A DNA stretch of 64,000 nucleotides, from assembly GCA_013265495.1 (NCBI GenBank), contig MU058213.1, positions 3,596,001 to 3,660,000 of the forward strand, written 5' to 3'. The DNA comes from Vicugna vicugna. Taxonomy: Eukaryota. The position numbers and the translations under genes are program-made. Shown in pieces: positions 3,854 through 49,853 of this stretch. How positions within the stretch are numbered: position 1 is the first letter of the stretch; each line of letters begins with the position of its first letter. A model generated the notes under the pieces. It searched no databases, had not been told where the DNA came from, and was given only the letters and a program-made list of their open reading frames with translations.

Positions 3854-4086
3854 AAGAATAAAAGACATTGTATTTGAGGGTTATTTTCCTAACTATTCTT
3901 AAGTATGAATTAGGGAATCTATCCATTAAAGTAAATTTCAGTTAAAGTTAAGAAATTGCTTCTATTTTATTGTAACATATAGAGTAAAATTATTATAAAG
4001 GAGAATTTCTATACTATAATTTGAAACAACTCAAATACGTGGCTAAAAATAAAATTACCTCCATATAAGACCAAGAAGACAAGTTA
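3854..4086 (+). pseudogene. Two candidate exon remnants (3854-3930 and ~4001-4086) with EF-hand-like LRVIFLTILKYELGNLSIK|ENF
   Basis: ttccctag| ... |gtaaat, then a weak acceptor ... |gtgagt; in-frame join with one stop in each exon. Confidence 0.45.
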
Positions 4087-17726: not shown

Positions 17727-18795
17727 GAGGAACTAGATTCCTCTCTTTAAGAATATTTCCCATCTATACTATTGTGGGAATGTAAATTGGTACAGCCACT
17801 ATGGAAAACAGTATGGAGGTTCCTCAAAAAACTAAAAAAAGAGTTACCATACGATCCAGCAATCCCACTTCTGGGCATATATCTGGAAAGATGGAACCCT
17901 AATTTGAAAAAATACATGTACCCCAATGTTCATAGCACTATTTACAATAGCCAAAGCATGGAAGGAATCCAAGTGTCCATCAACAGATGACTGGATAAAG
18001 AAGATGAGGTATAGATGTACACAATGGAATATTAGTCAGCCAAAAATCAAATGAAATATTGCCATTTTGGCAACATGGATGGACCTAGAGATGATCATAC
18101 TAAGTGAAATAAGTCAGACAGAGAAAGACAAATATCATATGATATCACTTATATGTGGAATCTAAAAAATAATACAAATGGACTTCTTTACAAAACAGAA
18201 ACAGACTCACAGACATAGAAATAAAATATATGGTTACCAAAGGGGAAAGGTGGGGAGAGGGATAAATCAGGAGTGTGGGTTTAGCAGATACACAGTACTG
18301 TATATAAAATAGATAAACAACAAGGATTTACTGTGTAGCACAGGGAACTATATTCAATATCTTATAATAACCTATATGGAAAAGAACTGAAAAAATACAT
18401 GTATATATAACTGAATCACTTTGCTGTACAGTTGAAACTAACACAATATTGTAAATCAACTATACTTCAATTAAAAAAAAAACTTCCCATACAGGAGATA
18501 ACTGTTTAATGAAAGACAAAGAGATTTCCCCAATTAGGTATTTCCATGAAGACATCAGAACCCAGACAAGGGAAGCAGAAGATTGTCTTTCAGGAGATAC
18601 ATTACTCTTTCTAAATCAGCCTTGATATCTTTGCCAGAAATAGCCATTACCTACCTAGAAATTCAAATGCTTCACTATTTAAGAATATTGTTGAGCTATA
18701 GTTTGAGGCATTCACTTGAAAACTGTGGAATAGTGTGCAAAAAAAAAATTAACAAGCCTTTGATAGATACATCATTTCTCACTAATTGCACAAAG
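17727..18795 (+). pseudogene. Exon remnant interrupted by an L1 insertion
   Basis: ttcctttccag| acceptor at 17726. Removing the L1 gives [20 protein letters not shown]... in frame; later RFPQLGIS, LSFRRYITLSKSALISLPE (18583), IVEL*FEAF/LENCGIVCKKKI (EF-hand-like) and FSLI. Confidence 0.62.
17764..18482 (+). mobile_element. 5'-truncated L1 with degenerate TSD
   Basis: ORF 17772 [36 protein letters not shown] is the L1 ORF2 C-terminus; flanks aatatttcccat / aaaacttcccat. Confidence 0.93.
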
Positions 18796-19003
18796 TGAAG
18801 AGACATTTTAAGAACACATTATCTCTTCATCAGTATTAGGTCATGCCCCAGGCAGAAATCAGGACCAGCCTCTGATACTAAATGGAGAAAATCTACAGGG
18901 TCAGGAGACATAGGTCAGGGCTTAATTATCCAGTTATTCAGTACAAAAGGTCATATGGATTATTTAAAGGCTCCTTTGAAGAAAAACTGACAGTTCTTTC
19001 TAG

Positions 19004-19736
19004 AATCTTCTTCTTCAGGAGTAACTTAATATTATGACCAAAGCGGAGATCTGAAAAAACTAAAGTAAGTCTTAAATTTATTCTATTACCTCATAAATTT
19101 ACCAAAACAAGTTTTAGTTCAATGATTAATCAATCCATATCTTTCCCTATAAAAATGACCTCCCAGTTTAAGTAGGGATTCTTTCTACTGAGTATCAGAC
19201 TATGAAGAGATGTTAAATAAGTCAGAAGAAATAACCAAATGTGATAAGGAAATCTCTCAGTGCAGAAACTTTGATAAAGCCTTTAAACCTTGATTACATT
19301 TAACATCCATCTTTCCACAGTGCTTGCAAGCCATGTCAGTGAAGAAGTGGTTCAACAAGTATTTTGAAAGCCATGATGGCCTTTTTAAAGAAATACAACG
19401 GGTCAAAACAAAACTATAAAATTAGCAATAATTCTAAAGTATAACAAAGTCTCAGAATGTCTGTCAAGTTGTACTGAGATAATGTTTAGAGACATTAACC
19501 TTGGACTTTTTTGTCTCCTAAAATTACTCTGTAGTTTTCCACTGGTTGGATAATGGCATCCACTGTTTGATGAGGGCGGACGCTGCTTACAAAGGAACAA
19601 TTCCAATAGTTTAACTGAAGGACTGCATGAATTTTTAAATTCACACCTGGCAAAATAATCTGAAATCACAGCGTTTTGGATTTGTATGAGCCAAGCCTTT
19701 GACAGAGAAATGGTTTCATTTTAAATTCAAGGAGGG
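19004..19736 (+). pseudogene. Three phase-compatible exon remnants (19004-19064, 19321-19401, 19535-~19736)
   Basis: ttctttctag|...|gtaagt; ctttccacag|...|gtcaaa; ctctgtag|. Spliced: SSSSGVT*YYDQSGDLKKLN ACKPCQ*RSGSTSILKAMMAFLKKYNG FPLVG*WHPLFDEGGRCLQRNNSNSLTEGLHEFLNSHLAK*...SQAFDRE. Confidence 0.68.
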
Positions 19737-21029
19737 GTTGGTTCCAAATTTTCAACCAGATTGGAGGATCAGACTTTAGGCTTTATAAAAGGTAATCATG
19801 GAGCAGTGAGCAAGCACTCAGACTCCTGGGCAGTTCCCCACCCCCAGGGCAGGACAATCAAAAAAGATTTTCTGGGGCCAGGAGAGAGGAATCAGAGAAA
19901 GAGGGAGAGGAGAACTACAAAGTTAAATGTTTGAATGCAGCTACAAGAACCCAACCCTTCGTGCCAGAGCAGCCAGACCCGTGGTGGGGGGCCAGGCTGG
20001 TGGAGCTTGGGTCAGTAATCAGAGCAGAAGCCCAGCCCCCATTTCCCACATGGAGGGCACCCCTGCAGAGTGCCCCACACCACTACGGGTGGCCTCAGTA
20101 GAGTAAAAATGGTACCGTAATGTGTTTGAGTCTCCAGTTCCCCATGACCTGGACCAGATCCCTGAGTTCCTTGGGCCCAGGTTGACAGGCCAGGCATGTT
20201 AAGTAGAAGGAGATACGGGATTGCTGGTGGAAAAAGAAAGCAAAGAATGTGGGATGCAATATTCAAAGTTTCTCTCCTGTACTCTGAGAGATGCAAAGAC
20301 CTGAGACTCCTATGAGAGAGATAAAGATATGAAGCACCAAGCAAAGTCATAAAGCAACTCGAGTCCTAAGTGTGGAGGCTTAGGGGATATTTGGAAAGAC
20401 GGCTTGGGAGAAAGAGATAAGATTTTAAAGCAAGGCTTGGAACAGAACCCAACGCTACTAATACAGAAGCTGAGCAGACCTGGGAGGTGCTGGGAAGCAA
20501 GAGAGTGACAAGGGCAGGGCTGTACTCATCTGGGCAGAACCTCCGCTCAGGGGGTGCCCACAGCCCTTTCTCAGCCACAAGCCAAGGAGGACTTGGCCCC
20601 CAGCCAGGAGAAGAGGGATTTGGGTTGAGGGACCAGCCCACACTGTCTGCTGCTCTTAAGAAAAGACAGGCGCTTACCTTGTTGATGTGAAGCGAGGGCC
20701 ACCATGCACAGCCCTGTCGGGGGTATCACCTATACAGACGAGGACAGAAGTGATGCCCCGGGCTGTGCAATGCACTTCCTGCTCTCCTGTACTTTGGGCC
20801 TTGTCTAAAGCCTGTCTGAAACTTATCTCCCTCCAAGGGAGGCTCCGTGTACATGATAGCTGAAGCTTCCTAAGAGGTGGGGTCAGTGAGAGAATGAAGG
20901 AAAGCCACTGATGAAGGAATGTGAGGATTTTACTTAAGACTGAGGCCACCCAGGTAAACCTAGAAGGCTTTTAAAGAAAGATGAAACAGACTGTATACAG
21001 AAACCTTCTGGAAGTGAGGACATCTAGAC

Positions 21030-24250: not shown

Positions 24251-24757
24251 AAGACTTTCGCTTCTGAAATGGGCTTCAAGATTAAATAATGACTCTGCAT
24301 TCCCGCTGTAAAAATCCTGATCCTTCTTAAGGCGATGGAGACTAAATTAGACAGAAATAAAAAGCACATTAATATTTTAAAGACATCTCACCACCAAAGC
24401 ATACACAATTATTGCATTCATTGTATTGATACTTGAATAGACTTTTTTTTTTTGATGCCCTTATATACTCATGTGGCAAAGTTCTCAGATGTTCCGTTAA
24501 CCATGTGATCTCTCTGGGATCCTACACTTTGTCTCTGACCTCTTTCTTATGGAAGATTATACCCTGTTCAATAGTAAGTCATGCAATCCACTCAGCTTCA
24601 TGAAGGGATGGCATATATGCTCAGGTGTAACAAAATCTGTTTTACACACTAACCAAAACATGGCTGCAGGAAGGAGTTTGAGAACATCAGTGTGTAAAGA
24701 CTGGTATCGATCAGTCCAACAAAGACACTAAAATCTGCAGACCCAAAGGGGAAACAA

Positions 24758-25106
24758 AGAGATCACACAGATCAAACATCTACGGGGCCAGACAGGTAAT
24801 ATAAATGGAAAGGCACGTCCTGCACATCACACAAGGGAGCAGGGGCACACGGAAACTAGAGAGGAGGTGTGTTCTTGAACAGGGAGGTGGTCTCTGCCTA
24901 GGTCAGGCTGACCGGGTGAGAATGGAGATCCCTTGTTATGAAATTTTACAATATTTGAACAGAAATCAGCAATCTAGATTGCATGTGAAAACTTCATGAT
25001 TTGTAAAGTAGCATCAACTAACTAAAATTTTTTTAAAATATTATGCAAATCTAATAAAACATATTTCGAGCTAGACAGGACCCAACTCACCAGTTTGCAA
25101 TCTCTG
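24758..25106 (+). mobile_element. MER102-like hAT-Charlie DNA transposon remnant
   Basis: ctacggggccagacaggtaatataaatg at the left end and ccagtttgcaatctctg at the right end. Confidence 0.65.
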
Positions 25107-25204: not shown

Positions 25205-26639
25205 TGTGGTCGATTCTCTTGAGTATTTTCATTCATATGAAACAAAAATTCGTTAATGGTAAGCCAAATTTTTGAAAATAGCCAAAATAACATTAACATG
25301 AGTACCTTTAATAAACAGAAAAAAATGGGGGAAATGAATTTGGGTTTATTTTTTATCTCTCAGTTTCACTACCTGCATACATGTTTCTTTGTGGAACATT
25401 CTAGTGGGTGGGAGGGCTGTAGCTCTGGGAGGAAGGGAGCCCCAGCTGGGCCCAAAGGAAGGGATGGGGAGGAGCAGAGCCTGGTTCACTGACTGGTGCC
25501 TCAGAGAGACTGGGGGCATCACTATCACTGACTGAATTCATTATAATCTCTTCATCTCTGCATTTAAGGCGATAGAGCCCTATACTACATCTCAGGTCTT
25601 ACCTCTTTGTGTTCCAAGAACACGTTTTCAAGCTTTTTTGCCTCTGGGCTTGTTTATCCAACGCTCTCCACCTCAGGCAGTTGAAATGTTACTTGAACTT
25701 CAAAACTCAAATGCTACCTCATCCAAAAGTCTTCTGCTAACATTTTGGAGTTTTCTTTCTTTAGAGTGTCCGTAGAATTTTTGTCTGTATTTTGACATTT
25801 ATATTCTGCTTTGAAACACAGATTCTTGAGTTCTTGTCTTACGCACATCAGACAACTAGGACATTGAGAGCACCAACTGCATCTTATTTTTGATCATCTG
25901 GAGTTGCCTAACATTCAGCTTGGCACAAATTAGGCACTGGAGAGGTCTGTCTTGTGTTGGTGAGAAGATGAGTTCTCCATCTAGTGGTAGAACTGAAAAA
26001 TTGCATGCAACTTTTGCCTTCAACAACTATGTTATTAACAAAAGACTGCCTCATTGATACTACAGAATGCTTGAACTTTTGTCTCTATTGAGAAGTCTAC
26101 TGCTACTTCTTAATCAGACATGGAGCTCCTTTATAGCATTTTTGATCGAAATAGTTCAAGAAATTTCTCTAGATGATAAAAGATGCTATAAAAAATCAAT
26201 AGATTCCTTTAATTGGGTAAGTTTCCTTTATCAGGCTTAGACAAGTGTTACCGCTGCTTTCTGACCCATGACATAAATATCTTGGAATAAATGGAGATAT
26301 TCTCCGAACTCTTCTAGTTTATCAAACCCATATTTGTAGAATTTGTGACCTAAAGGATTCTCTACAAGAGCGTTTCTCACTTATTCAAGGACAAGTCCAG
26401 AAAAGTTAAGGTTAATACTCTGAATTGTAGGTTTATACAGAGCATGATTTCTGGTAGAAGAGGACCTACCCAATGATCTAGAGGTCTTACCTGACAGAAT
26501 TTCGAGTCAATTGCTGCTTTTATATTCCACTTTCTTCTTACTCTCTTTCTCAAGGTTTAAAAGGATTTCAGGGGGAGAACAGAATCCCCCCCGAAATGGG
26601 GTCCATGTGGGGTGATCTCAAGACCTGAGGAAAAGTCTG
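25205..26639 (+). pseudogene. Four exon remnants (25205-25258, 25985-26216, 26318-26410, 26555-26639)
   Basis: All AG/GT bounded (gtaagc, gtaagt, gttaat, gtaact). Peptides TFAFNNYVI/KDCLIDTTE, DMELLYSIFDRNSS/ISLDD, KDAIKNQ*IPLIG|LSNPYL*NL*PKGFSTRAFLTYSRTSPEKLR|FKRISGGEQNPPRNGVHVG*SQDLRKSL. Confidence 0.75.
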
Positions 26640-26889: not shown

Positions 26890-27290
26890 ATAGCTTGAAA
26901 AACCTTAGCCACAATACTTTGTGGCTCTTCCCATCAATAAGATGAGACGAGAAACTACTCAGTTCTCTGCTGCTTCCCCATCTCTTAAATCTGGGCTGAC
27001 TGTCTGACCTGCTTTGACCAACAGAATGTGGTGGAAGCGACACTGTGCAAGTTCTTAAAGACTCACCACAAGGAGCTTTGCAGCTCCTGTTTTGTCCTTC
27101 TGGGAATGCTGCCCTGAGACCACCACGTAAGGAAACTGGTCTAGCCTCCTGAAGATGAGAGGACATACGGAGGAGAACCAAGGCGTCCCAGCCGGGAGCT
27201 AAGTCAGCTGTCAGCCCTGTGGGTAAAGCTGTCATGCACCTTCCAGCCCAGCTAACCCTCCGCTGAATGCAGCCCTATGAGTGAGCCCAG
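26890..27290 (+). mobile_element. MaLR LTR (MLT1G/H-like), 3'-truncated
   Basis: tgctttgaccaacagaatgtggtggaagcgacactgtgcaagttc...ccagcccagctaacc...gctgaatgcagcc. Confidence 0.8.
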
Positions 27291-27356
27291 AACCTCTACA
27301 TTTTGATGGGGGAAGCCCAAAGAACTTGAGCTATCTTTAGTCCATCACAGTATTTC

Positions 27357-30300
27357 TGTTGCGTTCATCTATTGCTTTGTAACTGGCTATCCCAAAACTT
27401 AGTGGTTTAAAACCACCTCTGTGCATTTACTCACAGTTCTGGAATTTCGGTTTGCTGGACTCAGCAGGATAGTTCTTCGCCTGTGGCTAGGCAGGCTTGG
27501 AATTCAAGACAGGTTTTCCCACAAGTCTGGTGTCTCACTGTGATGGCTGGAACATCAAGGGCTTGGCCACCGTGACAGTGTGATCAGATAAGATGTCTAT
27601 ATCTGGTCTTTGTCCTGTCACAGAGCTCCTGAAACTCTTGGGATTTTCTGAGTGATGTGGTGAGAGAAGGGTCTTTTGTTAATCACAGTAAGCCCCCTTC
27701 AACCGTACCTGAGTTTATGTTAATGCGATGACTGGTGGCCAACGCCCCTGGGTAGCTTCAGGAAGGGGGCTGGTCACTGGGGGAACCAATCCTGTGACTA
27801 GAGGGTTGGAACTTTCAGTCTCACCCCCCAGTCTCCATGGAGGGGAAAGAAGCTGGAGACTGAGCTAATCACCAAAGGCCAATGATTCGATCAGCCATGT
27901 CTTCATAATATGGCTAACTTATGGAGTTCAGAGAAATTCTGGGTTGGTGAACACATTCGTGTACCAGGAGGGTCCACACCCCAAATTCACAGGACAGAAG
28001 CTCCTGTGTTCAGGACTTTTCCAGACCTCAGCTCACGTACCTCTTCCTTTGGCTATTCTCTGTATAATATCCTTCAAAATATCCTTTCTAATAGGCCAAG
28101 AGTGGTAAGTAAAGTGGTTCCCTGAGTTCTGAGCCATTACAGCAAATTCTCAAACCTGAGGAGTGGGTGGTAGGAACACCAGATTTGTAGCCAAGTTGGA
28201 CAGAAGTGTGGGTAACCTGGGGACCCACTGCTTGCGATGGACATCTGAAGGTGGGGGCAGTCTCATGGGACAGAGAGGGCCAATACTCTGGGTAAATAGT
28301 GTCAGAACTGAATTAAATGGTGGGACACCAGTTGGTGTCCATGGAGAACTGGAGAACTGCTTGTTGTGGAAAATCTACACATTTGGTGTCAGAAGTGCAG
28401 TGAGTAGAGAAAGTTTTCTTTTAGCCAGGCATCTTCCAGCTCTCCACCTAGGTGGCTGAATCTCTTCCCATGTGGCTCGGGCCCCCAAGAGGACAAAACT
28501 GGAAAGTGCACAGTCTTGTAAGACCTGGCACGGTATCACGTCTGTGGCATTCTACTTGCCAAAACAAGCCGCAGAGCCAGCCCAGATTCAAGGGGAGGAG
28601 AAATAGACTCCATGCCTCCATGCAGGGACAGAAATGATTTTGTGGCTATCTTCAATCTACTGCGGTGCATCCTCTGGCCATAAATTATTTGCATTTCTCC
28701 CTTGCGCAAAACACATTCATCTCTTCCAGTACCTCCCAAGTCTCATCCAGTGTGGCAGCAGCTCAGTGTTCTGAGTTTCATCCTTTGGATCAGGTCGGGA
28801 TGTGGATGAGGATGCTTGGGTGTGGCTTTTCTCAATCTGGAAACCTGTGAATCAAAAATTCAAGTTATCTGCCACCATCAACGCCACCTCCCCTACCCCA
28901 CATGCAGTGGTGAGAGAGGGATAAGATAACAGCATTAGATGCTCCCATTTTGGGGGAGGGGGCATTGAAGGCACAAAGCAGGCACGCACGGGTCTTCAGC
29001 AGTTCTGAAGTCCAGCTGCACACGTGTGGCCAGTGTCCTTGGCTCCAGATGCAGGGACTGTTTATGCTCCCTCCCCCCACCACACCTCACCAAGTTGCCA
29101 TCAGTTTACCTTATTCTTTTCTTTCCATTTCAAATGATCTTGCTTATGAATTTCCTAATGTGTTCACTTCTTTCCTTAATCCACTGTTCTTGGCTGCTGG
29201 CTCTGTCCTCTGAGACCTTTTTTCTTTTCAATGAGAAATGGTTCATCTTTGAAGCTGAGTAATTTCTCAGTCTGCTTCTTGCTCATGGGAAGGTGAGGGC
29301 GCAGAGGTCTCTACATTTTGAGTTGTCTTTGTTCCTTTAGTCTAAGTGTGTACAATTCCTTTAAAAATGCTGTGGATGTTCTGAACATTAAGTTATAACG
29401 TACTCCGTTAGACAAAAGTCACACTCTGGTCCACACATCTCTTGGATATGGGCAGGCCCTCTCCACCCTGAGCTGTGAGATCTTAAAATAGGTCTTACAG
29501 CCACACCCTTACTTCGGTCTTGACTAAGGTCACATTTTGTTGGCAGCAACCTGAGGCCATTTATTACTTTGAGAACCCTTGGGGGCAGGAGAGTCTGGGA
29601 TAGAGAAAGAGTTTTATTTTCCAACCCATCAAGCCCAAGGTAGCAAATATTTTCTCTAAATTCTGCCTGAAAATCGAACTGCTCATTCATCTCTCCTTCC
29701 CACATTTTATCATGGGCAGCTACAAGAAGCAAATTAGCCCCTTTGGCATTCCACTTGGAAATTTCTTTTGGCCAGGTCCACAAGTTCGTTAAGCACATTT
29801 TCTGTCTCACATGTTACCGTAATCATCAGCTTCACCTATTTTCCCCCTACTTTACGACACAGATAAGCATCTTTCCAGCCTTCAGTTTCCTCGCTGCCTT
29901 TGCCATCCTTCCAGCCTTCCACCACGGCTCAGTCTCTAAATCATCTGTTTCAGGTTTCTGCTACGGGAGCACCCCACCTCCACGTACAACCTTCTGCTTC
30001 AGTTTTCTATTGCCTTGTAATTAACCACCTCTATAATGACTAAAAACAGTGATTTATTGTTTCTCATGATTTTGTGAGTTCACTGTAGTAATGTGACTAC
30101 ATTCATTTAGGAGCTTGCTGGGGCTGCTATGTCCAAGGTGAGCCCTCGTCCTCCGGAAGCTGCCTCCATACGAACTCCCATCACATGCTAGTCTAGCCTG
30201 AGCCACTTTTCAGCATGGTGGCTAGCCTCCAGAGAGAGCGTTCCAAGGGGACAAGCCCCAGTGTGCAAGTACTTATCAAGCCTCCTTCCATCACGCTTGT

Positions 30301-30410
30301 CCCACTGGCCAGAGCAAGGCACACGGTAAAGTCCAGAGTCAACGTGGGAGGGGAGGCCAAGGCAATGAATACTGGACGGGATGGTTTACTGGGGGTCATG
30401 GTCTACCGCA
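27357..30410 (-). mobile_element. MaLR provirus remnant: LTR (27357-28663, split by MER21), MLT1-int (28664-29994), LTR (29995-30410)
   Basis: MLT1 LTR motifs at both ends. The internal part starts on the minus strand with gaaggttgtacgtggaggtggggtgctcccgtagcagaaacc. ORF 29388-29810 KEISKWNAKGANLLLVAAHDKMWE resembles the MaLR internal ORF. Confidence 0.8.
27572..28425 (+). mobile_element. MER21-like LTR nested in the MLT1 LTR
   Basis: cacagagctcctgaaactcttgg...gtacctgagtttatgttaatg...agagggttggaactttcag...cacatttggtgtcagaagtg. Confidence 0.85.
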
Positions 30411-30584
30411 CTCTCCAACTTCATGTCTTACCAGTTTCTCCCTTTTTCCCTATGCTGTATTTACACTGTGTTCCTTGCTGTTACTGACATGGAAATCTCT
30501 TCCTTGCCTCAATCGTTGCTTTTGATTTTCTCTACCTGGATCACTCTATCACCAGTCCTCAAATGTCTGTTCTTTTATAGTCTT

Positions 30585-30860
30585 TAGGTATCAGTCAAAA
30601 TGTCACACTTCCCCTCCCCCCACCCCACCAAGTTACTATCACATTACCTGTTCCTTTCTTTCTTGATGTTTGAAATAACCTTGTTTATGAATTTTCTAAC
30701 TTGTTTGCTATTTTCCTCCCCCTACCAAAATATAGTCCCAGGGGGTCTTGTCTGCTTTGTCTGCAGCTGTATTCCCAGCACTTCACATGGGTCGAGCCCA
30801 AACTAAGTGCTTAATAAATGTTTCTGAATGTATGATGAACAAACAGATAAATGAATGAAG
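30585..30860 (+). mobile_element. L2 3' end
   Basis: gctgtattcccagcac...aagtgcttaataaatgtttctgaatg...aatgaatgaa. Confidence 0.75.
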
Positions 30861-31029
30861 TAATTAAATCTTAGTGTAAAGGAATTTGTAAGTAAATATG
30901 TTTATTTTGTATAGAAGCTGAATCAAAGTTTTAAACCATCATTGACTACTAAAAATCAGGAGTGACCCAGAAAAGTCTTTTTGAGAAAGGTGCTTAACAG
31001 TAGTTACAGCTCGCTGAAATATTTATAAT

Positions 31030-31215
31030 AAGTGAAATATTTGAGATTTGCTTCAAAATGATCTGGAGAACATGGAGAAATGAGTTGGGGGTACAGATAA
31101 AATGAGACTGTGAATTGACGCTTATTTAAGTTGGGTTAAGGGTACATGAGGGTTCATTATACTGTTCTCTTAACTCACATATTTATTTGAAATTTCCATT
31201 ATAAAAAGTTTTAAA
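31030..31215 (+). mobile_element. Old L1M 3' end fragment
   Basis: gagatttgcttcaaaat...gggtacatgagggttcattatactgttctct...gaaatttccattataaaaagttt. Confidence 0.7.
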
Positions 31216-31430
31216 ATTATATGTAGATTACTAAGGGACTGAAGAGCATTAGAAAGTGTGGAAAATATTCACAACTATGAACTAATTTATTAATATTCCC
31301 ACTTTTCCTACATTTTTTAGAAAGAGTTATGATGGAAGGGATTCTAAAGATCATCCAGGAATGTCATTGGCTAGATGATCCGAGGGTTATTTAGATATTG
31401 CATTTAACCTATCATGGACCTTATTTTAAG

Positions 31431-33205
31431 ATATTCCAGGAATTTTGCATGCAGAACAGGTTTCTGGAAAGCAAGGCATTTCCCCATTGATTTCCATTCA
31501 GTTTTGAAGACATGCTCTCATACCTCCCGTTGACTTCTCTGTCTGCTAACTACAGCTCAAGGCAGGAGGTGGGAAGTGCCACATTCATGTAAGCGCTGGC
31601 ATTTTGCCTTGATCTGGGGCTCAGTCAGGTATCCGATGCAACAAATTTTTCTGTTCCCTGCCTGGAACAAGAAGTCAGGGAGAGTAGGAGTTTGCCTCAA
31701 CAGATGCCATCCTCAAGCTGGCAGCTCTTTGCCAGGCTTAGTTATCAGTCTGGGGAGTCGCTCATCTGTTGGCAGCATTCCATTAATAAGAGACTTTTAA
31801 TTATTATGTATCTTTCATGCAAGTCTTAATTTGGGAAAATCTAGAAGAAATACGGCTTCATCCCTGGTATTAAGGAGCCTGCAGGGCCTTACAGGGCACA
31901 AGAACAAGTCTAGCCTTAAAGCATTATCTTATATTTTCCACCCAGAACTGGAAGATTATTATGTGGTTGGGGGCTGCCATACCCTGGCCATTCATTTAAG
32001 GAATCAGGACCATGGGGCCAAAATCATCCAGCACAAAGCCGACTCATGAGTGAGCGATGGAATCAATGATGTAGTTACTGGGGCAGAAGACCAGGTGGCT
32101 GGTTTCCAAGCAGAGCAGCAGGGTCTCCCACTCCTAGAGACCCCCAGATTTACCATCGCCAGGCAAATTCACTTAGGAAGACCATTCTGCTGGGCATCTC
32201 TGCCTCTGGAATAGCGATAAAGAAACACGTGTGAATTTGTTATAATGGAAGTCTCTTTGCTGGGAGATTTGTCTTCACTCACAATTCACACACACCCTAA
32301 ATTTAATGCTGTCTGATTACAAAGATGGTAGGAGAAAGGCCAAAACACAGAAATGGAGGTGTGTGAAAGCAAGAGACCTGGGGTGAGAGAGGCCTAACAG
32401 TTTGGGGTACCTTCAGCTGCAAGTAACAGTGAGCTCCAAGGGTGGGTTAATTCACCAAGTCTCACCTCCCCACACAGCTTCATGTTCTCAGGGAGACCCT
32501 GAATTTGTAGGGGAGAAAGCACTGGGCCAGGGGCCAGGTGGCCTGAGTACTGGTCTTGACTCATCAATTATCTCACCTTTCCAGACCCTGTTATCCCACC
32601 TGAACAAAGAGGGAAGGGTCCAACTTCTCTGAGATGTCAGGATCTATAGGTCCAGGAACGCTGAGTGTTTAGCTCCCATGGGTGGGTCATGGATCATCGA
32701 CAAGTGGGAGGAGAGAGCACCTCACTTTGCAATTATGTTCAAAGCCCCAAACTGACCTTGGTCTTTTGGAATAAGTTAAATGAAGGTACCTGCCACAGTG
32801 CTCAGTGTATGTGAGTCTCCTGTTTCCTTCCTACAGCTCAAGTCCACCTTCCACATGTAGGGCCATCTCACCCAGAAAAGAGAGAGAAGCAGTTGTGATT
32901 TGCAAATGCAAAACAAGCCTATGTCAAGACTTCCTTTAAAAAATAGCTTATTACATTGAAATATATATATTTGCATAGCGTAATTTCACAAAGGCTATAG
33001 TAGACTCCAGTCACCAAAGTAAAAATTAAAATACAAAAATGTCATATTCTTATTGGAATTCAGTTGGATTTGAGGATGTTACCGTTTATAGACTCACACA
33101 GTAAAATAGTGGTTTAATCAAAGATTCATTTAATGCAAATATTTGGAGTCCTACCAGAAAGACCATAAGGCTATTGTCAAATCAGTTCAATTTCTGTTAT
33201 AAGCA
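31431..33205 (+). pseudogene. Four exon remnants (31431-31568, 31946-32049, 32138-32327, 33064-33205)
   Basis: All AG/GT bounded. Peptides IFQEFCMQNRFLESKAFPH*FPFSFEDMLSYLPL...; LEDYYVVGGCHTLAIHLRNQDHGAKIIQHK; ...LMLSDYKD|VGFEDVTVYRLTQ*NSGLIKDSFNANIWSPTRKTIRLLSNQFNFCYK. Including 31946-32049 needs one frameshift. Confidence 0.62.
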
Positions 33206-34197
33206 GTAAGGGCAACCATGTGCTGTGGTTGTCAAGGAAATTAACATACTTCAAAATGCAAATCCATCTTAGTCTACCCCTCCAGACCTCAAAGCAGGCA
33301 TCTTGGCTATAGACAATTTAGATCTAACATCTAGTACTCCAACTACAACGATATCCAATGTCTTTAAATAGGCAAGAGATACTACATAATAAACGTCCTA
33401 TTCATTTGTTACTTTGAAGGATGACAATTTCTTAGCTTCATACTTTGTGCCTCATTGAGAAACAATCTGAAAATCACTAGCGTCAATTCAATTAAGCAAA
33501 CAAGGATTGTGGCCTTGCTGTAGACAGGTCCCTGGGCTCCATGCTTTGAGGCATACAATGAAAGGCGCCTTTCAGGAACTTCCAGTTTAGTGGGGGATAT
33601 GGATACACACGATTGCCCATACAAGGCAGAATACTATCAGAGAGGCCCGAATTCAGTGCCACAGGGGTCTCCTTATTTTACAGGCATATTTGGCAAAGAC
33701 TTCCTCTAAGATGGCAGTAGAGGTGGTTTTGAAGGAAAGTGTGCCTCAGTTAAAAAAAAAAAATACAGACAGCCTGAGCAAGACTTAGAGGCACAGGAGC
33801 GTGCTCTATTCGGGAGACAGCAAGTGGTCCTGTTTGGCTAGACACACTCTGTAAGGTGCAGCTCAGAACGTTGCGTGGGAACCACGGTGGGCATCCATTA
33901 TGTTTTTTTTGCTTGGCTTTGATTCTCCTTCTGGAAACAGGACCTTGGTGTTCCCTTGGGAAACTATGCCTGCCCTCTTTTCAGCTCAGGAGAGTTGAAG
34001 GAACTGAATGTGCAGTGCCCTGAATACCCTCCAAGAGAGCTTGGACTCTGAGTTGTATATTTTAAATCTCTTCTTTAATAGAATGAAGAATCAGAAAAAT
34101 CTTTCTAAATGAAAAATGTTCAAGCATACATAGAAGTTAAAAAAAACCGAAATGACGAATCTTCATAAACCCATCCCATACCCAGATGAAACAATTA

Positions 34198-34585
34198 TAG
34201 GCACACCTCATTTTATTGTGCTTCACTTTATTACACTTTGGAGATAATGCAGTTTCTCTTTCTCTCTCTTTCTTTCCCTCCCTCCCTCCAGCCTTCCCTC
34301 CCTCCCTCTCTCCTGTCTTTTTTACAAATTGACAGTTTGTGGTAATCCTGAGCTGCCACAAGTCTATCAGCGCCATTTCCCCAACAGCATTATTTTAGAA
34401 GTAAGTTATGTACATTGTTGTTTTAGGAAAAAAATGTTATTGCACACTTAAGACTACAGTATAGTGTAAACATAACTTTTCTATGTACTGGGAAACCGAA
34501 AAGTTCACGTGACTTACTTTATTGCCATGTTCACTCTATGGTGGAGGTCTGAAACCAAACCTGCATTATTTCCAATGTACACCTG
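34198..34585 (+). mobile_element. Internally deleted Tigger1 derivative
   Basis: TA then taggcacacctcattttattgtgcttc... and the right end ttattgcacacttaagactacagtatagtgtaaacataactttt...gtacacctg. Confidence 0.88.
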
Positions 34586-34599
34586 CGCCATGATTTCAT

Positions 34600-37500
34600 C
34601 ATTCTTCCTCTATCCTCCTCTCTGTCTTTTGCCAAAGTATTTCAAAGTAAACCTTGGACATCTTGTATTTTCCCTTCTACATATTTTAGCATGCATCTCT
34701 AAAAAGTATGGACATTTTCTTACAAACAAACACCTATTGAGTCTTTGGAATTGACTACTGCTCAGTCTATAGTAAAAGCTCCCTATCTCAAAAATGTCTC
34801 TGTAAGCTGGCTTGTTTAAATCACGTTCTAAACAAGGTCCATACATAGAATGTGGTTTTTATAGCTGTTAAGTCTATTTTAACCTATAGCATCCCTCCTC
34901 ATCCCATTTTTCTTTCTTTATGCTACCGTCTTGCTGAGGAACTACGTCCGTGGTCCCTTAGAATGCTCCGTTTCTGGACGGGTCTGGTTGCTTCGCTGGG
35001 GTGTTGTTTAACTTGTCCCTCTGTTTCCTGTATTTCTTATGAATAGAACTTCCCCATGTCTGCTTGTCCCACATTTACTAATAGGAATGCTAAGACTGAC
35101 CAGTGGGTTCAGGTGGTGACAGCCTGACGCTCCAAAATTTCCTGTCCATCTACTACACATTGCTTTCATCCAGTGACGATCTTTGTTTGAATTTTCTATT
35201 TCATTAGGGGATGCAAAGTGGTGATTTTCTAATTATACCATTCTTTCCACACTTGTTATTTGGAATTTTTCGCTAAAGAAGAATTTTCCCTGTGTCAAGT
35301 AGGGCTAGTTGACATACGAAAGTCAAGTTTCCTTATAATTGTCAATTTTCAACATACTATTAAAAATAACTTTACAAACTGCAAAATATAACAAATGCAT
35401 AAAGCCACATAAAATAAGTAATACTTTAATAAATTATTGGAAGCAAACACCTTGGAAACCACTACCTAGGTAAGGAAACAGAACTTTGGCAGCCACCCCA
35501 GAAGCCATCTGTATGTCCATTTATTCTGATCTCTATGATAATCATTTCCTTGCTTTTTAAAAATATTTTATCACCCAAGTGTTCATCCCTAAACACTATA
35601 GTTAGTTTTCATCTATTTTTAAATTTAATATAAACTGTAATATGACGTTTTTAAAAAGTCCCTTTTAATCTACAAGTTCTCCATCCATCGCTTTTTCTTT
35701 CTTCCTTTTTTTTTTTTCCCTTGAAATTTATTTGTTAAAGAAACTCAACTGTTTGATCTGTTGAGTTTTCCAGACTCTGGACTTTACTGATTGTATCCCC
35801 ATGATGCAGTGTTCCCTGATCTATATACTTCCTGTAAATTGGTAATTGGGAACAGAGACTTGGTTAGATTTCAGTTCAATTTTTGGAGGCAAAACTACTT
35901 AACTGTGGGTTGTGTTCTTCTGTTTGGGGGCACATGATGTCTGTTTATTTCTCTTTGTGATGTTAGTAGCCGTCAATGCCCATTGTCGAGATCAATTCAT
36001 TAGGGATTGTAAAATGATGATATTCCAATTTTATCACTCCCTCATTTATTAGCTAGAATATTTCTGTCTAGATCAGCTCCCCCTCATCTATTATTTGATT
36101 ACCCAGTGGTACAGCCCACATAAGAAAGGCAGGGCGACTATTTGATTCTTTCCCTCTACCCAACTTTAAAAATAATAACTTAGTTGCCTATCATCCTCAA
36201 AAGGTGACCAATTAATTTTTTAGGATCATTAAAACTCATAAATTTAAACATTTTAAGATTATCAATCCACTTAAGTTATTTTCCTTACTGAGTTTAAGTT
36301 GTTCTATCTTTGGCCAGTGGCAGCCTCTTTAAGTTGGTTCCTGTGTCCTTTGAGCATGACCTCAGTAGTATTTGATAGCTTCCTTACTATTGTCGACAAG
36401 ATATTCCACAAGTTCATACTGATACTTTCAACGCAGTCAGGACTGTATTGTTTTTACTTAACATCTTCTATCTTACATCAGTATCCCCTTTCTTGTGAGA
36501 ATCCACATTCTCAGAGACCAGAGAATGATAGAATTAGATTATCACACAATTACAGTTTGCATAGTCTTACATTTTATCTACAGTCTTAGAAAAATCACCC
36601 ATTTTACCACCACCAATATTACTGAAACGGTTTAAAAAAATGTTTGCATATACTCTCTCCATTTTCTTTAGTTTTATCCACATTTTCACAGCCTATATCC
36701 AAAGCAGTCTACTCTTTAACTCTCATGTAGTATGTGTTTTGCAAGTAAATAGGTATTTGACGCTCACCACCAGTCCTTAGGTTGGTATCTCTCTGGTCAT
36801 CTGGATGTCCGAAGTTTGTTCTCCAGCCGATGCTTTAGGATATGTGAGATGAAACAATATTAAATGCCTGTGACCCCACAATGTTTCCAACAGAGGATGC
36901 CATCAAACACAGATTTTGTTTTGATTTGTTTTGGGCAAACTGATAGTTGAGGAGGGGTAACTTGGCATGGTTTTAATTTGTATTTCTCTTAGTATGAATC
37001 AGGGTAGGCATTTTTTAAATTATGCTTAAGGATCATTTCTTCTTTCTGTGAGCTGTTTGTCACATCTTTTGTCCACTTTTCTATGGGGTTGTTGGCTCTC
37101 CTCCTTTCCTCATTTTTAGGAGATTTTTCCTTATTAGGGTCATTACTCCTTTGTATGTGATAGGGGTTATAAATACCTCTTCCTACTCTGTTATTTGTTG
37201 TTTGAGTTTACTTATGGAGATTTAGGTATGTGACTCTACAATATGTTTAAAACCTTCCAGGATTCACCCTTCACACATCGCTTATTCTCAGATTTTTTGG
37301 GGGGCTATCATTGTTTATATTCTCATTGTAAGTATATATTCAATTTGTCTAGCTCTTGGAAAAAAAAGATTGACATTTTTATTGGGATCATGTTAAATTT
37401 TTCAATAAACACAGGGAGAACGGATATCTTTATGATTTTGAGTCTTCCCATCTACGAACATGGTTTTCTCATTCCATTTGCTCTGGCCTATCTTGTGTCT

Positions 37501-37660
37501 TTCAGTAAAATGTGTTTAAAATTTTTTCCCCATTTAACTTTTGCATGTTTGTTTTTAGGTGCATGCCTGAATAGTGTATCTTTTTTGTTGCTAGCGTAAA
37601 AAGAGTCTTCTTTTGCATTGTATCTTCTAGCTGGTTATTGCTGATGTATATGAAGAATAT
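34600..37660 (-). mobile_element. Block of old, fragmented L1M (L1MC/ME-like) sequence
   Basis: T-rich, with motifs such as tatacttcctgtaaattggta, ggttttaatttgtatttctctt and ggagaacggatatctttatgattttgagtcttcc. Confidence 0.7.
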
Positions 37661-37719
37661 TGATTCCTAAATATCAAAGGCTTTTGAGTTAAGGATTTTA
37701 AAGGGGTCACAGTATAAAA

Positions 37720-38340
37720 ATTATTAGAAGAATGACAGATAATTAAGTATTTCAAGTGAGCAATGAGTCCATGTACCAGAGTAGGATCAGGTGGAAAACG
37801 AAAGAACAAGGGGATAGGGACCTTGAAGGTACAGGACTTGGAAAGTAATCTGATGCTGAGGAGAGGTTGGAGGAAAGGGCACAAGAGCCCCCAGCTGGGT
37901 GACTGCAGTGATAGTAATGTTAACAGATAATAGGAAGAGGAGAGGGTTGGGGAGAAGAGAACGAATTTCAATTTTGGGTGTTTAGATTTTAAGACCGGAA
38001 GTCAGGGAGAGATTAAGTCTGAAAACTTAGACTTAGAAGTCATCTGGAAGGGCTGTGGGAAGGTTGGAAATGATGAGGGAGAGAAAGTAGAATAAGAAAA
38101 GACAATGATTGAATGTGGAAGGATTTCTGTATGTCAGTAATAGACAGAAGAAGCTGATCCCTGAAAGACTGGCGAGGAGGGGTCTGAGGTAGGAAGTGAA
38201 GCAGAATATAAAGTGATAGAAACCAAAGGAACAGTGACACAAGGTTAACCAATTATGAAAATCACCTGTGATTTTTGAGACAGCCATTTCAGAACTGCTA
38301 TGAGGGTGAGGTAAAATTGTGAAAGGTTAAGTAAAGAGAT
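37720..38340 (-). mobile_element. L2 fragment
   Basis: Purine-rich L2-like segments (ggaaagtaatctgatg, aatttcaattttggg, ctgtgatttttgagacagccatttcag). Confidence 0.55.
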
Positions 38341-38578
38341 CTTACTGACTGGGGGTGAATCTGCATAGGACATTTAAACTCTTGTGTCTTTCAAACATCT
38401 GAAATCTAAATACAAGGTCCCATGATTTAAATAATCTACGTAGGTATCGGTTAAACAAACATGCTCAGGTGACAGTGACTTGGCTTAAAATTTATTAAGT
38501 TATTTCTTATGGCCACATAACCTAATTCAAAGTTCACCCCTTTGCCTGAATATACATTCTTACTTTACCTCCTGACAG

Positions 38579-39818
38579 ATGTGATGCATGTGTTCGAGGA
38601 AAACACAGCATTTTAGTGCTAAAAAGGAAAAGAATTCTTCCCACTCCTAGGTGAATGCTTGTTCTGTTATGTGGGCGTGTGTAACAATCATAACAGCTTG
38701 TATTTAGGGCTTTATAAAATATTGTCACATCTCACTGAACTTCACAAAAGATTCAGGAAGTAACAAGGACAGGGGTCATTATTCTTAGTAAAGTGCACAG
38801 AGGGGGAAAGGATGACAAAAACACATCTAGATCTCAGAAGTTCCTGACTCAGCCTGTGGACATACGTTATGAGTCAGAACTTAGTGTAGGAAATGTTTAT
38901 TCTAGCTGTCTTAAGCAGAGAAATACTTAAGGCAGGCAGTCTGGCACCTATACATAAATGAAAGAACAAGCTTTAGATTGTGCCTCCAGAAATGACTCCC
39001 AGGACAACACGGTAGAGTGGACCACTGGGGGACCAAATCCATACCTGGAATCACTCCAGAGATCAGGAAGCCAGACAAGGACGTTGCTGATACTGCTGCT
39101 GTTAGCATCACTGCCACCACTGGACTGCTTCTTGATAGTCACAGAACTGTTAAGTTGGCGCGGGAACATAAATCCCATACATCTCAGGATCTCAAGAATG
39201 GACACTGGAACATTGCTGCTGAGACTCTGTTGCTATGAGCTTGCTTGCAAGAAAATCACAAAAAAATGGGTAGGAGGATAGCTTTTGTTTCATTTTCATC
39301 CTCCAGATCTTGCAAGAATGCATCTAATAGATGGAATACAATTTATATCCAAACCCAAGCTGTGAGGAAGTCTAGAAAGTGTAGCTTTTAGCTTCCCAGG
39401 ATCTGCATACCAGGAAGAGGCCAGAACAGAAACTGAGCAAGCCATTCTACAGTATTTGCCAGAGCAAACCTGTTGTCTTGACATTCAAGATGTTGGCAAA
39501 AGTGATGAACAGGCCAGAATCATGTGGCACACCACTAGGAAATGCTCTCCAGATGAGTATCATTACTAGTATCCAAATAACTTGTCAGGGTTATGGTTAT
39601 AATTGGCAGAGCTAAGACTTAAACACAGGTCTGACAACAATGACAGAATGCCTTTCAACTTGATCCATTAATTCTGTATAGTTGTTTAAGAAGCTTAGAC
39701 TCCACCTGTACTTTTTTTTTTTTTTGCAGGGGGAACAGTTATGAAGTATCAAATCTGTGCTAATATCAGGGCATTCTAAGGTTCTCTCCCGATTTGCCAA
39801 TTCCAATGAAGAGGAGAC
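38579..39818 (+). pseudogene. Four exon remnants (38579-38650, 38906-~39235/39269, 39307-~39556, 39730-39818)
   Basis: The 72-nt exon CDACVRGKHSILVLKRKRILPTP is stop-free and phase 2/2. It joins in frame to ORF 38958 (GGPNPYLESLQRSGSQTRTLL; LLDSHRTVKL in a shifted frame). The 39307 exon has about 83 codons with one TGA. The 39730 exon has a T-tract gcag| acceptor and a |gtaagt donor. Confidence 0.72.
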
Positions 39819-39914
39819 GTAAGTTTGCCTTCCTTCAGGGAAACCCATGGTGGCTTAGTGATTCCCATGCTAATTGAACATGCCACACTCCTGCTTAAAA
39901 CCTTCTTTCTGGTG

Positions 39915-43159: not shown

Positions 43160-46045
43160 CACCTTAAGATCCAGTCAGTTTAATATAAAATGTTTTTAAT
43201 TGTTTTCGAAAACATTTAAAAAACAATTTTTGAGCACTTTCAATAAAAAAAGAGAACTGAAATGCTACTGCAATATTCAACTACCGTAGTTTCAGCAGGT
43301 ACAACAGACAACAGAACACTGGGGAGATCTTGACTTTCTGCACTAAATGAAAACATGAAACAGGGCTTGTTTTTGTCATTTATGGTGTAGTAAAGCACAT
43401 TATAGTACAGGACTATTATATGAACCTCGGATGCACTGCACAAAAAAACACTTTCCTTCTTTTCAGTTCAAAAGTCAGTGCTTATTGCAATTATATGCAA
43501 AATTATTTACTTCATGAAGTCTTATCATGATAAACAGTATGCAAAATGTTTTAAACATCAAAACGATGAAAATAATCTGAGAAAAGAACATATTCAACAA
43601 CAACTAAGCAGAATTAGTAAACATAAAAAAGTAAATAACTTGTGAATAACTATGCTTGTCTGGTTAACACTGAACCAGGTTCAATACAGCCAAGGGGGGA
43701 AAAAAAAAGTGGTTACAGGAATACCTAGTACTGTACAAGATAAGCCAATAACACTCATGCACATTTTGTGATCATGTATTAACATGGTGAAGCAAACTAA
43801 ACTTAATTCTTCCTGCTGTAATATTCTCAGGTAAGAGAATAAGAATTAGAAATATCTCATTGAGATCAATGCACATTGCTACATAAGACAATTTTATCTG
43901 TCACTTTGATGACATTTTGTCTTTTCATAATGAAACACATTTAAAAAGTTTTAATCTGTGGACTGTATTGGTTGCATTTATCCTAAGAGATGTGCCTACC
44001 ACAGGTTCAACAAATTTAGTGCAATATATGAACCCCAGAAAGTTTGCTGGACGAATTCAACCAAATTTAAAGTGTTTGCTGCAATACTGTACAGGGGGTT
44101 AAAAATCCTCCAGTCTATATTTTTATCAAAAAAGATTTCCATTATTTTTATATTAGTAGGAAGCTAATAATGTAAACAAGGGATTAGAATGGCCTCAAAA
44201 TCTCCTTTTCAGAGTATTTCATATAGAAAGGCTCCCATCATTTGTTAAAAGAAATCACACAGTTTCCTTTGGGTATTGCATACTTTGGTGTGCAGTAGTG
44301 CTGTGTCTCAATGTACAGTGAAGAAATAACTAGCATCAAGAAAAAAAATATCTAACAGATCATTAAATCAAGATAACAGCAAACACACACAAATGCCAGT
44401 AACTAGGACATATCAATATATAAACCTCTGAGCCAACCCTAGCACCAGTTATTTATCAAAATATGTTAATACCCTACCTTGCAAATTTATTGAGCAATGA
44501 AAACCTTATTAAATTAAACCCTTCATCACATTTGTTAAATATTCATTGATTGTAGTCTTCTGATTGGCTTACTAATTAAGGTAAAGGAAAGCTTAGCTAG
44601 GTTCAAGGTAGCACAGCAATGGTTTAATGTTAGCTTTGAAAACTTAATGGCAATTTTTAAGTCTATTTGAAACTGATCTTGAAACTTACTTTTATGAAGC
44701 TGTCAACTAGTGAGAAGATTTCTGTCAGGGTGAAATTCATAAATAATTATTCACAAAACAGAATGGGAGCCATAGAGAGAAACATTTTAAAACAAATCCT
44801 GAGTGCTTATTTTGCAATTGTGGTTATCACAATAAATAAATTAATAAGCATGTTATAAAATGCTCTTCTTCTTCAAGTACTATTGGTATCCCCTTTGTTT
44901 TATCAGAGATATAAAGATTTGTGGCTTCAGACCTCAGGTGGCGAAATGTTTTCCGATCCGATTTTTATGTTATCTCCTTCCTGGCCTATTTGTTTTTCGA
45001 AGGGACCTCATGATCAAATTGCATTTCTAAATTCAAGAGGAGTGAAGGAGTCAGTCACTAAACTGAGGACTTAAGAATACTACAATTAAAAATCTTCAAA
45101 ATAAATCTTAGAATTTTAATATGTGCATGCAGACATTGTGATGAAACTAAGAAAATGCTTTTATTTCCTTCTAAATTCTCCTATCTCAACTACCAAATAA
45201 TAAAACATAAAATATTTCCTAATACATTTGTATTTATTCCACTAAATTACAATGTTTGGAATTATTTGTTGTGTGTGCACGTGTGCATGTCCCTATGTGT
45301 GTTAGCTCCACATTAAAATCAACATTTTAAAATAATACTAATGCAAGGTCACAAATATAAATGGCTACTAGTTTTTCCTTTTAAAATGTTTAGTGCAGCT
45401 TTTGCTTTCCTTACATTAATATTTAATTTTCCATTATTTTCTCCTATTTAAGCCCTTCATTCAGGTGCAAATGGTACTGAAGTCCCAGAAAGTCCTATAG
45501 AGATTTTTTTTTTGTCATCCTACAGTAGCTCTATGCTTCAAGCCTACATACTTATAATAACCTGAATATTATCCCTGTTTCAAGGAAGACCTTCTTGTCT
45601 ACAGTTCACTTTAGCTATGATTTCATATCTAAAAGATAATGCCAACAACAAAAAATAGCCTATACCTAAAATCAATGGTTTCCTCTAAAATCTGTGCAGA
45701 TAAACCAATGAATTAAAATGAACTTACACAAAATAAAGATCTAGACTGCTCTTGTAAAAGCCTGTGAGTCTTCTGTTTACTAGCAAACAATGTGATTAAA
45801 TGGGGAACGTTATAAAATTTTAAAACCTAATACTTGTTTTTCTACAGCCTACTCTCTTCAGAAACTTGTTAAAAGCTGAGGCGAGTCTAACCGTTTCCTA
45901 CTGAAGAAGAAACCACTTCTGCAGCAAACTCTTTTAAAATGTCACAATTAATAGTAAGTGTTTCTGCTGCGGGAGGCACTTCCATTAAGACAAATACAAT
46001 ACATATGTCTTTAGATACAGTGTGCTACATATTATAAAACACAAT
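43160..46045 (-). other. RFX7: RFX7 3' UTR (3' end approximate)
   Basis: AT-rich DNA after the stop codon with no recognisable transposon; ATTAAA signals on the minus strand at 43195-43200 and 43179-43184; several miRNA seed matches. Confidence 0.7.
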
Positions 46046-49321
<3,276 letters not shown>

Positions 49322-49853
49322 TTAAAAGGTGGAAAACAAAGCAGGTTTAACAAGTCTAGACTATGATCGGTAACTCATATATTCATTATTATTAAGGAAT
49401 TCATTACATGTAATGCTAAAAGGAGAAAAAAGACAGTTCGTGTTAGGTAAGAGTTCTTCCAGAGTAGATTCTATATAACCAGACACATACCTATTACAAT
49501 AAATGCAGCACAGTGCCATATAGCTACCAAATACAATGATATGTAAGAATAATATTGAGATTTCAATGAAAAACTTCACATCTGTGTTGAATACTTCCCA
49601 AAACAATAATTTTTAAGGTTATAGGGAGAGGAGATAAAATCTTGAAGAAACGTGCAACTCTAAAGGTATCCAACTAGAGTCTGTGCCAAGATGATTCACT
49701 CACAGGGGACACTGTCTTATAAATGGATCTACCTTCGACATTAGTGATAAACCACTGTGGATGAGGTCTCAGATAAAACTACTGCCTCGCATGTTTGCTC
49801 TACAGTGAATAGTGCAACAAGAGTATGGTTCCTGGGTAGTGGGTTTTAATGAC

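What the first reader, a model, noticed from the sequence alone, without database searches (positions are those of the whole stretch)
25985..26216. Best-preserved EF-hand fossil, plus several degenerate copies
DMELLYSIFDRNSS (from ATG 26120) continues after small deletions as ISLDD and IKDAIKN, fitting helix E, a DxNxSGxISxxE loop and helix F. Similar loops: LRVIFLTILKYELGNLSIK|E (3874-3930), MFFDLTCSAGFL (~16246), EL*FEAF/LENCGIVCKKKI (~18693-18750), QAFDRE/NGFI (~19692), SVLHTNQN...RKEFENI (~24636-24690) and LLDSHRTVKL (~39128). Inference: the lost protein was a multi-EF-hand, possibly calcium-binding, protein.
Basis: partly seen in the sequence, partly recalled or inferred. Interest (0 to 1): 0.7.

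Follow-up and report, generated by a model that had tools for sequence, protein, structure and literature searches.

The report
Probable dead EF-hand exon beside RFX7
A 232-base stretch next to the RFX7 gene of this mammal probably preserves one broken exon of a lost calcium-binding-type gene with two EF-hand loops, but the other claimed loops look like chance and the parent gene remains unidentified.

Summary
The window is mammalian; 46046-49300(-) is RFX-family coding sequence, most likely RFX7. Segment 25985-26216 has a weak AG and a strong GT donor. Its Gly6 and Glu12 are not in the DNA. The pair is the top score in 86 kb (shuffles reached it 2, 3 and 30 times of 200). A donor this strong follows a random point 0.8% of the time. 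The six 'degenerate copies' score like background. No Pfam, PDB or protein-database search found an EF-hand match or an intact relative; only unspliced readings of similar DNA near 19620 turned up. Verdict: probably (0.55) a decayed exon of an unannotated, intron-containing gene with one EF-hand pair. 'Multi-EF-hand' and calcium binding are unshown. Modest interest until an intact orthologue is found.

The parts
25985..26216 (+). Candidate decayed exon H (232 nt), weak AG acceptor and strong GT donor, holding two EF-hand-like readings
25986..26117 (+). Loop 26031-26067 has Val1, Asn3, Asp5, Cys6, Ile8, Glu12; the Val and Cys codons are each one base from Asp and Gly codons
   Evidence: frameshift positions are inferred
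26117..26202 (+). Loop from 26144 has Asp1, Asn3, Ser5, no residue 6, Ile8, Ser9, Asp12
26217..26222 (+). 5' splice-site consensus GTAAGT (9.0 bits)
24556..24795 (+). Candidate exon G (240 nt, AG..GT, one stop in its best frame); phase fits F before it and H after it
   Evidence: no homolog
19522..19791 (+). Candidate exon F (5' end uncertain, 19522 or 19535; donor 7.8 bits). Its 3' part matches unspliced readings of similar DNA elsewhere at 40/57 and 38/59 residues, with no indel and a 15-residue invariant run
19321..19401 (+). Candidate exon E (81 nt, open frame, acceptor 8.0 bits, weak donor)
19004..19064 (+). Candidate exon D (donor 9.8 bits), phase fits E
18620..18833 (+).
3854..3930 (+).
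31321..31460 (+). Candidate exon I (acceptor 9.2 bits, weak donor, one stop); membership uncertain
33420..33527 (+). Candidate exon K (acceptor 7.0 bits, weak donor); membership uncertain
43173..49322 (-). Context: large last coding exon (ORF 46046-49300, 1084 aa) and conserved 3' UTR of an RFX-family gene, read as RFX7
   Evidence: the name RFX7 is recalled

Best explanation
25985-26216 is a decayed internal or last coding exon of an unannotated, intron-containing gene on the + strand, tail-to-tail with RFX7. The exon encoded one EF-hand pair, a two-loop lobe with loop starts about 38 codons apart. Shown: the bases, the splice-like ends and the profile scores. Inferred: four or five 1-2-base indels and a few substitutions broke the frame after the gene lost selection, so no protein is made now. 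In the living ancestor the pair would have worked like other EF-hand lobes: the two loops pack together through their position-8 residues, and an ion bound in one or both loops moves the flanking helices, which regulates a partner or a neighbouring domain (established knowledge, recalled). The upstream loop is the better calcium candidate (Asn3, Asp5, Glu12; Val1 is one base from Asp). The downstream loop ends in Asp12 and may have been weak or structural. Exons D-G upstream probably belong to the same gene; what the rest of the protein was is not known.
For: The pair score at H is the best of 86 kb on both strands at all three frameshift costs; shuffled 43-kb strands reached it 2, 3 and 30 times of 200. 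The spacing (113 nt, about 38 codons) falls in the 36-38 class, the commonest among the EF proteins held (23 of 75 neighbour pairs). The donor lies 17 nt after the motif; such a donor follows 0.84% of random points. F3'+G+H5' join in phase with 3 stops in 171 codons (binomial P 0.02; 3.4% of random AG..GT triples). Similar DNA at F in two other records keeps an open, indel-free frame with a 15-residue invariant run. A real EF pair decayed in simulation by 25% substitutions and 4 indels has a median score of 9.2 and reaches the observed 14.1 in 33% of runs (optimistic, since that gene is in the profile).
Against: No EF-hand or other Pfam family above cut-off in 12, 27, 2 and 18 window readings. 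No EF-hand chain in 9 PDB searches. No intact relative in 3 word-based searches or the 1.84-billion-protein scan (that query covered C-F, not H). The single loop is beaten by a chance hit in an L1 relic. The pair test was devised after seeing the data and weakens to 30 of 200 at the stiffest frameshift cost. The EF reading needs 4-5 indels, and it starts H in a different frame from the one the low-stop F-G-H chain uses, so these two supports cannot both hold without one more indel. The + strand has no excess of strong donors (12 vs 17), and a blind exon-chain search did not recover the chain and scored the - strand higher. Pairwise or profile tests with an NCS protein, a calmodulin-like protein and bacterial NOX5-like proteins gave H background scores.
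Confidence: 0.55

Rival explanations
1. H is ordinary AT-rich intergenic DNA. The EF-hand readings come from the freedom to place several frameshifts, and the GT donor is coincidence.
For: Two free frameshifts give 27 perfect pattern hits in 84 kb. All family and database searches for H were blank. No strand bias in splice sites; no chain found blind.
Against: A partner loop at the predicted spacing (P about 0.01-0.04) and a strong donor right after it (0.84%) are two separate coincidences. Neighbouring segment F looks constrained.
Confidence: 0.3
2. The region holds a real fossil gene or constrained non-coding elements, but H is not an EF-hand pair: its true frame is another one, for example the frame that continues from G without a shift.
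For: The in-phase F-G-H chain with 3 stops in 171 codons enters H in the frame VVELKNCMQLL, not in the frame of the upstream EF motif. F's 15-residue invariant run implies about 45 nearly unchanged bases, which also fits an enhancer-like element. The Atlas gave P0002 residues 1-58 only unnamed hits at 0.90 or below.
Against: No family matches that frame either, and it has 5 stops in H; it leaves the EF pair score unexplained.
Confidence: 0.12
3. H is a fragment of an old processed copy (retrocopy) of a small EF-hand gene and has nothing to do with the other segments.
For: Two EF loops in one uninterrupted stretch ending in a stop (26200-26202) would fit an intronless copy of a C-terminal lobe.
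Against: No poly-A tail follows; no further EF signal directly upstream; the splice-like ends would be unexplained; calmodulin-like and NCS queries score H at background.
Confidence: 0.03

Closest known systems
EF-hand domain pair (Pfam PF13499 EF-hand_7; loop pattern PROSITE PS00018, recalled)
   Same: Helix-loop-helix twice, loop starts about 38 codons apart, Asn3/Asp5 or Ser5/Ile8/Glu12 or Asp12 present.
   Different: Broken by 4-5 indels; Val at loop-1 position 1, Cys at position 6, no residue 6 in loop 2; no Pfam hit in any reading.
Calcineurin-B/CHP, NCS and NOX5-type third EF-hand (lead-in G-x-x-E-K-L..A-F..Y as seen in L088, L089, L090)
   Same: H opens with GRTEKLHATFAFNNY; the CHP-like fragment L088 has its best window hit there (11 of 20 identical, E 0.21).
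   Different: L088 was fetched with a pattern I drew from H, so that hit is circular. The NCS protein and a five-sequence NOX5-like profile score H at background, and their EF3-EF4 spacing is 45-48, not 38.
EFCAB6-type multi-EF-hand ciliary proteins (recalled; no sequence available to test)
   Different: Not tested: no EFCAB6 chain appeared in 9 PDB searches, and the extra loops score like background.
Unitary pseudogenes (e.g. the 44 added by Mudge et al. 2019, PMC6886504; PVALEF is an EF-hand gene there, pseudogenised in rodents)
   Same: Spaced, splice-bounded, frameshifted exon relics between intact genes.
   Different: No intact orthologue or synteny shown here, which the definition requires.

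Membership tests
EF-hand (PF00036/PF13499, PS00018) | Scores above the Pfam cut-off or matches the loop pattern | tested here: not met
   0 hits in single frames and in two readings with X at one frameshift; 3 pattern mismatches in the best single frame. Positive control L090 gave EF-hand_1 E 1e-22.
EF-hand (PF00036/PF13499, PS00018) | Helix-loop-helix profile match when frameshifts are allowed | tested here: inconclusive
   Single loop matched by 16 of 200 shuffled strands at cost -5; 27 and 87 of 200 at -3 and -8.
EF-hand (PF00036/PF13499, PS00018) | Occurs as a pair at 32-42 codon spacing | tested here: met
   Partner at 113 nt; 35 of 3000 shuffles at cost -5, 122 of 3000 at -8; needs inferred frameshifts.
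Calcium-binding EF-hand loop | D, D/N, D/N/S and E at positions 1, 3, 5, 12 (criterion as stated in PMC6170504, table 2 legend) | tested here: not met
   Upstream loop V,N,D,E; downstream loop D,N,S,D. The ancestral states are unknown.
Multi-EF-hand protein (EFCAB6-like) | Three or more EF pairs along the gene | tested here: inconclusive
   Six extra loops at background singly; other exons together 31 of 1500 random-place chains but 48-74 of 600 composition-matched shuffles.
Multi-EF-hand protein (EFCAB6-like) | Sequence similarity to EFCAB6 | not testable with these tools
   No EFCAB6 sequence could be obtained; PDB searches blank.
NOX5/DUOX-type EF-hand oxidase | EF pair followed by ferric-reductase, FAD and NADPH domains | tested here: not met
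   NOX5-like profile best + score 42 vs null 40-56; no such Pfam family in 26901-34102 or 38201-40002; 34100-38200 and 40000-43000 not run on Pfam.
NCS/GCAP/recoverin | Similarity to a four-EF NCS protein | tested here: not met
   H score 25-28 vs null maxima 34-51 with one NCS query; low power.
Unitary pseudogene | Disabling lesions in the coding frame | tested here: met
   No open frame across H; 4-5 indels needed.
Unitary pseudogene | Exon-intron structure retained | tested here: inconclusive
   AG..GT ends and in-phase joins, but no strand excess and no blind recovery.
Unitary pseudogene | Intact syntenic orthologue in another species and no intact copy in this genome | not testable with these tools
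   No genome held; bird-like RFX7 contig L001 covers only 5 kb past the 3' UTR and shows no match.

The most novel reading that the evidence does not exclude
Between 3854 and 33527 lie the remains of an undescribed vertebrate gene of eight or more exons that encoded a protein with several EF-hand pairs. It is dead in camelids but may still be open in some other mammals, whose DNA at exon F has no stop where this genome has two (P0002, P0003). It would be a missed calcium-sensor gene next to RFX7.
Probability: 0.15. Interest if true: 0.6.

Novelty: new member of a known kind. Interest (0 to 1): 0.3.

Why it matters
If real, it marks a gene loss beside RFX7 that I did not find in print (searches) and points to an EF-hand protein to look for in marsupials, reptiles or fish. 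It would add one entry to the list of lost mammalian genes, not a new mechanism. If some mammals keep the gene open, it would be a missed protein-coding gene. It also shows how easily EF-hand loops can be read into non-coding DNA once frameshifts are allowed.

Tried and rejected
Pfam on candidate regions with stops read as X: 0 EF-hand hits in 12, 27 (one weak RALGAPB_N, E 0.019, below cut-off) and 18 window readings, and in 2 readings with X at a frameshift. PDB by sequence: 9 searches, only weak unrelated hits (best E 0.053). Word-based homolog searches with G, P0002 1-58 and the 5' part of H: 5, 1 and 20 candidates, none at E<=10; they covered proteins up to 2000 aa and close relatives only. 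The representative scan with one frame of 18600-19793 gave 3 hits: P0002 and P0003 (unnamed singletons that run from F on into the sequence after the donor, so unspliced readings) and P0004 (a repeat, noise). NOX5-like, NCS and calmodulin-like ideas were tested and not supported. GCIP/GCAP: PMC6170504 main text (passages seen) names neither NEDD4 nor RFX. An internal repeat between F and the G/H junction (LKDCMNF vs LKNCMQL) was noticed but, by my estimate, is within chance. A minus-strand gene: no Pfam hit in 9 minus readings. Blind exon-chain search: uninformative, driven by GC-rich repeats. Rfam: one tRNA-like hit only. Papers: PMC6886504, main-text passages plus a search of 9 supplementary files (files 1 and 8 not searched; 30 of 92 chr15 places seen in file 3), no RFX7 entry; the unseen parts could list this locus by coordinates. 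All other papers: search listings only.

Full report
Setting. The window is CpG-poor and full of L1 relics, so it is mammalian. A tRNA-like element at 1934-2005 looks to me like a camelid SINE (recalled), and earlier notes on this genome call it camelid (unchecked). The only long ORF, 46046-49300 on the minus strand (1084 aa), falls in an RFX cluster of the ESM Atlas (score 0.97) and is 75% identical to a bird-like contig, L001. I read it as the last exon of RFX7; its conserved 3' UTR ends near 43173. In human the next gene on this side is NEDD4 (recalled; not in the window). The finding lies about 17 kb beyond the RFX7 3' end, on the opposite strand. No genome is held for this window.

The observation. 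DMELLYSIFDRNSS occupies 26117-26158. One base later comes EISLDD (26160-26177), and one base after that KDAIKNQ* (26179-26202). The loop from 26144 therefore has Asp1, Asn3, Ser5, Ile8, Ser9 and Asp12. Position 6 has only one base, and position 12 is Asp, not Glu. The segment starts after a weak AG (3.9 bits) and ends at a strong GTAAGT donor (9.0 bits) (splice matrices recalled).

Is one loop more than chance? Not clearly. A recalled PS00018 pattern has no perfect hit in the window. With two free frameshifts it has 15 on + and 12 on -, and 26144 is not one of them. I built a 29-column EF-hand profile from 108 distinct loops found in viral-collection contigs and scanned 1-43000 on both strands with frameshifts allowed. 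Locally shuffled strands matched its score 27, 16 and 87 times of 200 at frameshift costs -3, -5 and -8. The six other loops are ordinary: at cost -5 they are matched or beaten by 86, 319, 167, 300, 258 and 106 peaks on + and similar numbers on -.

EF-hands come in pairs, so a real loop predicts a partner about 36 codons away. There is one. From the start of the segment the frame reads GRTEKLHATFAFNNYVINK (to 26042); after one extra base comes DCLIDTTE (26044-26067); then the first frame resumes with MLELLSLL. This loop has Asn3, Asp5, Ile8 and Glu12; its Val1 and Cys6 codons are each one base from Asp and Gly. As a pair, the segment is the top score in 86 kb at every cost; shuffled strands reached it 2, 3 and 30 times of 200 (double these for two strands). 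Shuffling only the upstream part gave a partner as good in 43, 35 and 122 of 3000 trials. A donor of 9 bits or more lies within 30 nt after 0.84% of random points; here it is 17 nt after the motif. A real pair decayed in simulation by 25% substitutions and 4 indels keeps a median score of 9.2 and reaches the observed 14.1 in a third of runs, so the score suits an old fossil. I devised the pair test after seeing the sequence, which lowers its weight.

Surroundings. Other AG..GT-bounded stretches lie at 3854-3930, 18620-18833, 19004-19064, 19321-19401, about 19522-19791 (F), 24556-24795 (G), 31321-31460 and 33420-33527. The 3' part of F, G and the 5' part of H join in phase with 3 stops in 171 codons, against a background of 5.2% per codon (P 0.02; 3.4% of random triples). 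That chain enters H in a different frame from the upstream EF motif, so both cannot hold without one more indel. The 1.84-billion-protein scan with one frame of 18600-19793 returned 3 proteins. P0002 and P0003 are unnamed singletons that match F at 40 of 57 and 38 of 59 residues, without indels or stops and with a 15-residue invariant run, then run on past the donor at lower identity. They look like unspliced readings of the same locus in other mammals (inference). P0004 is repeat noise. Against a gene: strong donors are no commoner on + than on - (12 vs 17), and a blind chain search did not recover these exons. Without H, the other exons carry EF signal in 31 of 1500 random-place chains but in 54, 74 and 48 of 600 composition-matched shuffles, which is not enough for 'multi-EF-hand'.

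Identity. Nothing names the protein. Pfam was blank for EF-hands in 59 window readings, while the control L090 hit EF-hand_1 at 1e-22. Nine PDB searches and three word-based searches were blank too. These tests have little power on frameshifted 25-80-residue pieces, and the most sensitive one did not cover H. The lead-in of the upstream loop resembles the third EF-hand of CHP, NCS and NOX5-like proteins, but the one supporting hit is circular, and NCS, calmodulin-like and NOX5-like queries score H at background. The bird-like contig reaches only 5 kb past the RFX7 3' UTR and shows no match. EFCAB6-like remains an untested, recalled idea.

How it most likely works. Today it makes no protein: no frame is open across the segment (shown). 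It was probably one exon of an intron-containing gene and encoded a two-loop EF-hand lobe (inferred, 0.55). Such lobes act as ion-dependent switches on a partner or a neighbouring domain (established knowledge). By the criterion in PMC6170504 (D, D/N, D/N/S, E at 1, 3, 5, 12; passage seen) neither loop as it stands would bind calcium; the upstream one is one base from meeting it. The rivals are chance (0.30), a real fossil or constrained element read in the wrong frame (0.12) and a retrocopy fragment (0.03). Whether the region is transcribed was not tested.

Novelty. Five literature searches (listings only) and the searched parts of Mudge et al. 2019 (PMC6886504) show no described gene relic here; unseen supplement parts could list it by coordinates. 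Earlier notes of this scan hold nothing on this place. If real, it is a new member of a known kind, a probable unitary pseudogene with an EF-hand pair. Interest 0.3; it would rise to about 0.6 if an intact multi-EF-hand orthologue turns up.

Noticed in passing
window 19650-19700 (+): A 15-residue run (SEITAFWICMSQAFD) is invariant in this genome and in P0002 and P0003, implying about 45 nearly unchanged bases: a coding core or a constrained non-coding element.
   Followed up: partly
window 1300-1600: Small CpG-rich patch (CpG o/e 0.58 in 1001-2000) with a donor-like site at 1557, inside what I recall as an ERVL/LTR16-type LTR; could be a promoter or first exon for + strand transcripts.
   Followed up: no
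window 12490-12578 (+): Best single EF-hand profile hit of the region lies inside an inverted L1 relic; a clear chance hit and a useful yardstick.
   Followed up: yes
   Followed up: no
window 1934-2005 (-): Rfam tRNA hit of 35.7 bits, probably a tRNA-derived camelid SINE.
   Followed up: partly
window 47535-47588 (-): Pro-Thr tandem repeat in the RFX7 exon, also present in the bird-like orthologue L001.
   Followed up: partly
L001 9433-10724 vs window 43173-44430: The distal RFX7 3' UTR is 81% identical over 1.3 kb between this mammal and a bird-like contig, while the proximal UTR does not align.
   Followed up: no
L001 about 11800-12000 (-): A stretch just past the RFX7 3' end in the bird-like contig reads like a degenerate EF loop with a stop upstream; no match to the window above chance.
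   Followed up: partly
L089 and L091 (GTDB MAG contigs): Intronless neurocalcin/NCS-like genes of eukaryotic look in a bacterial MAG, twice; probably contamination.
   Followed up: no
L090, L097-L103: Bacterial NOX5-like proteins (EF-hands plus ferric reductase) in 5 of 301 genomes searched in that phylum.
   Followed up: partly
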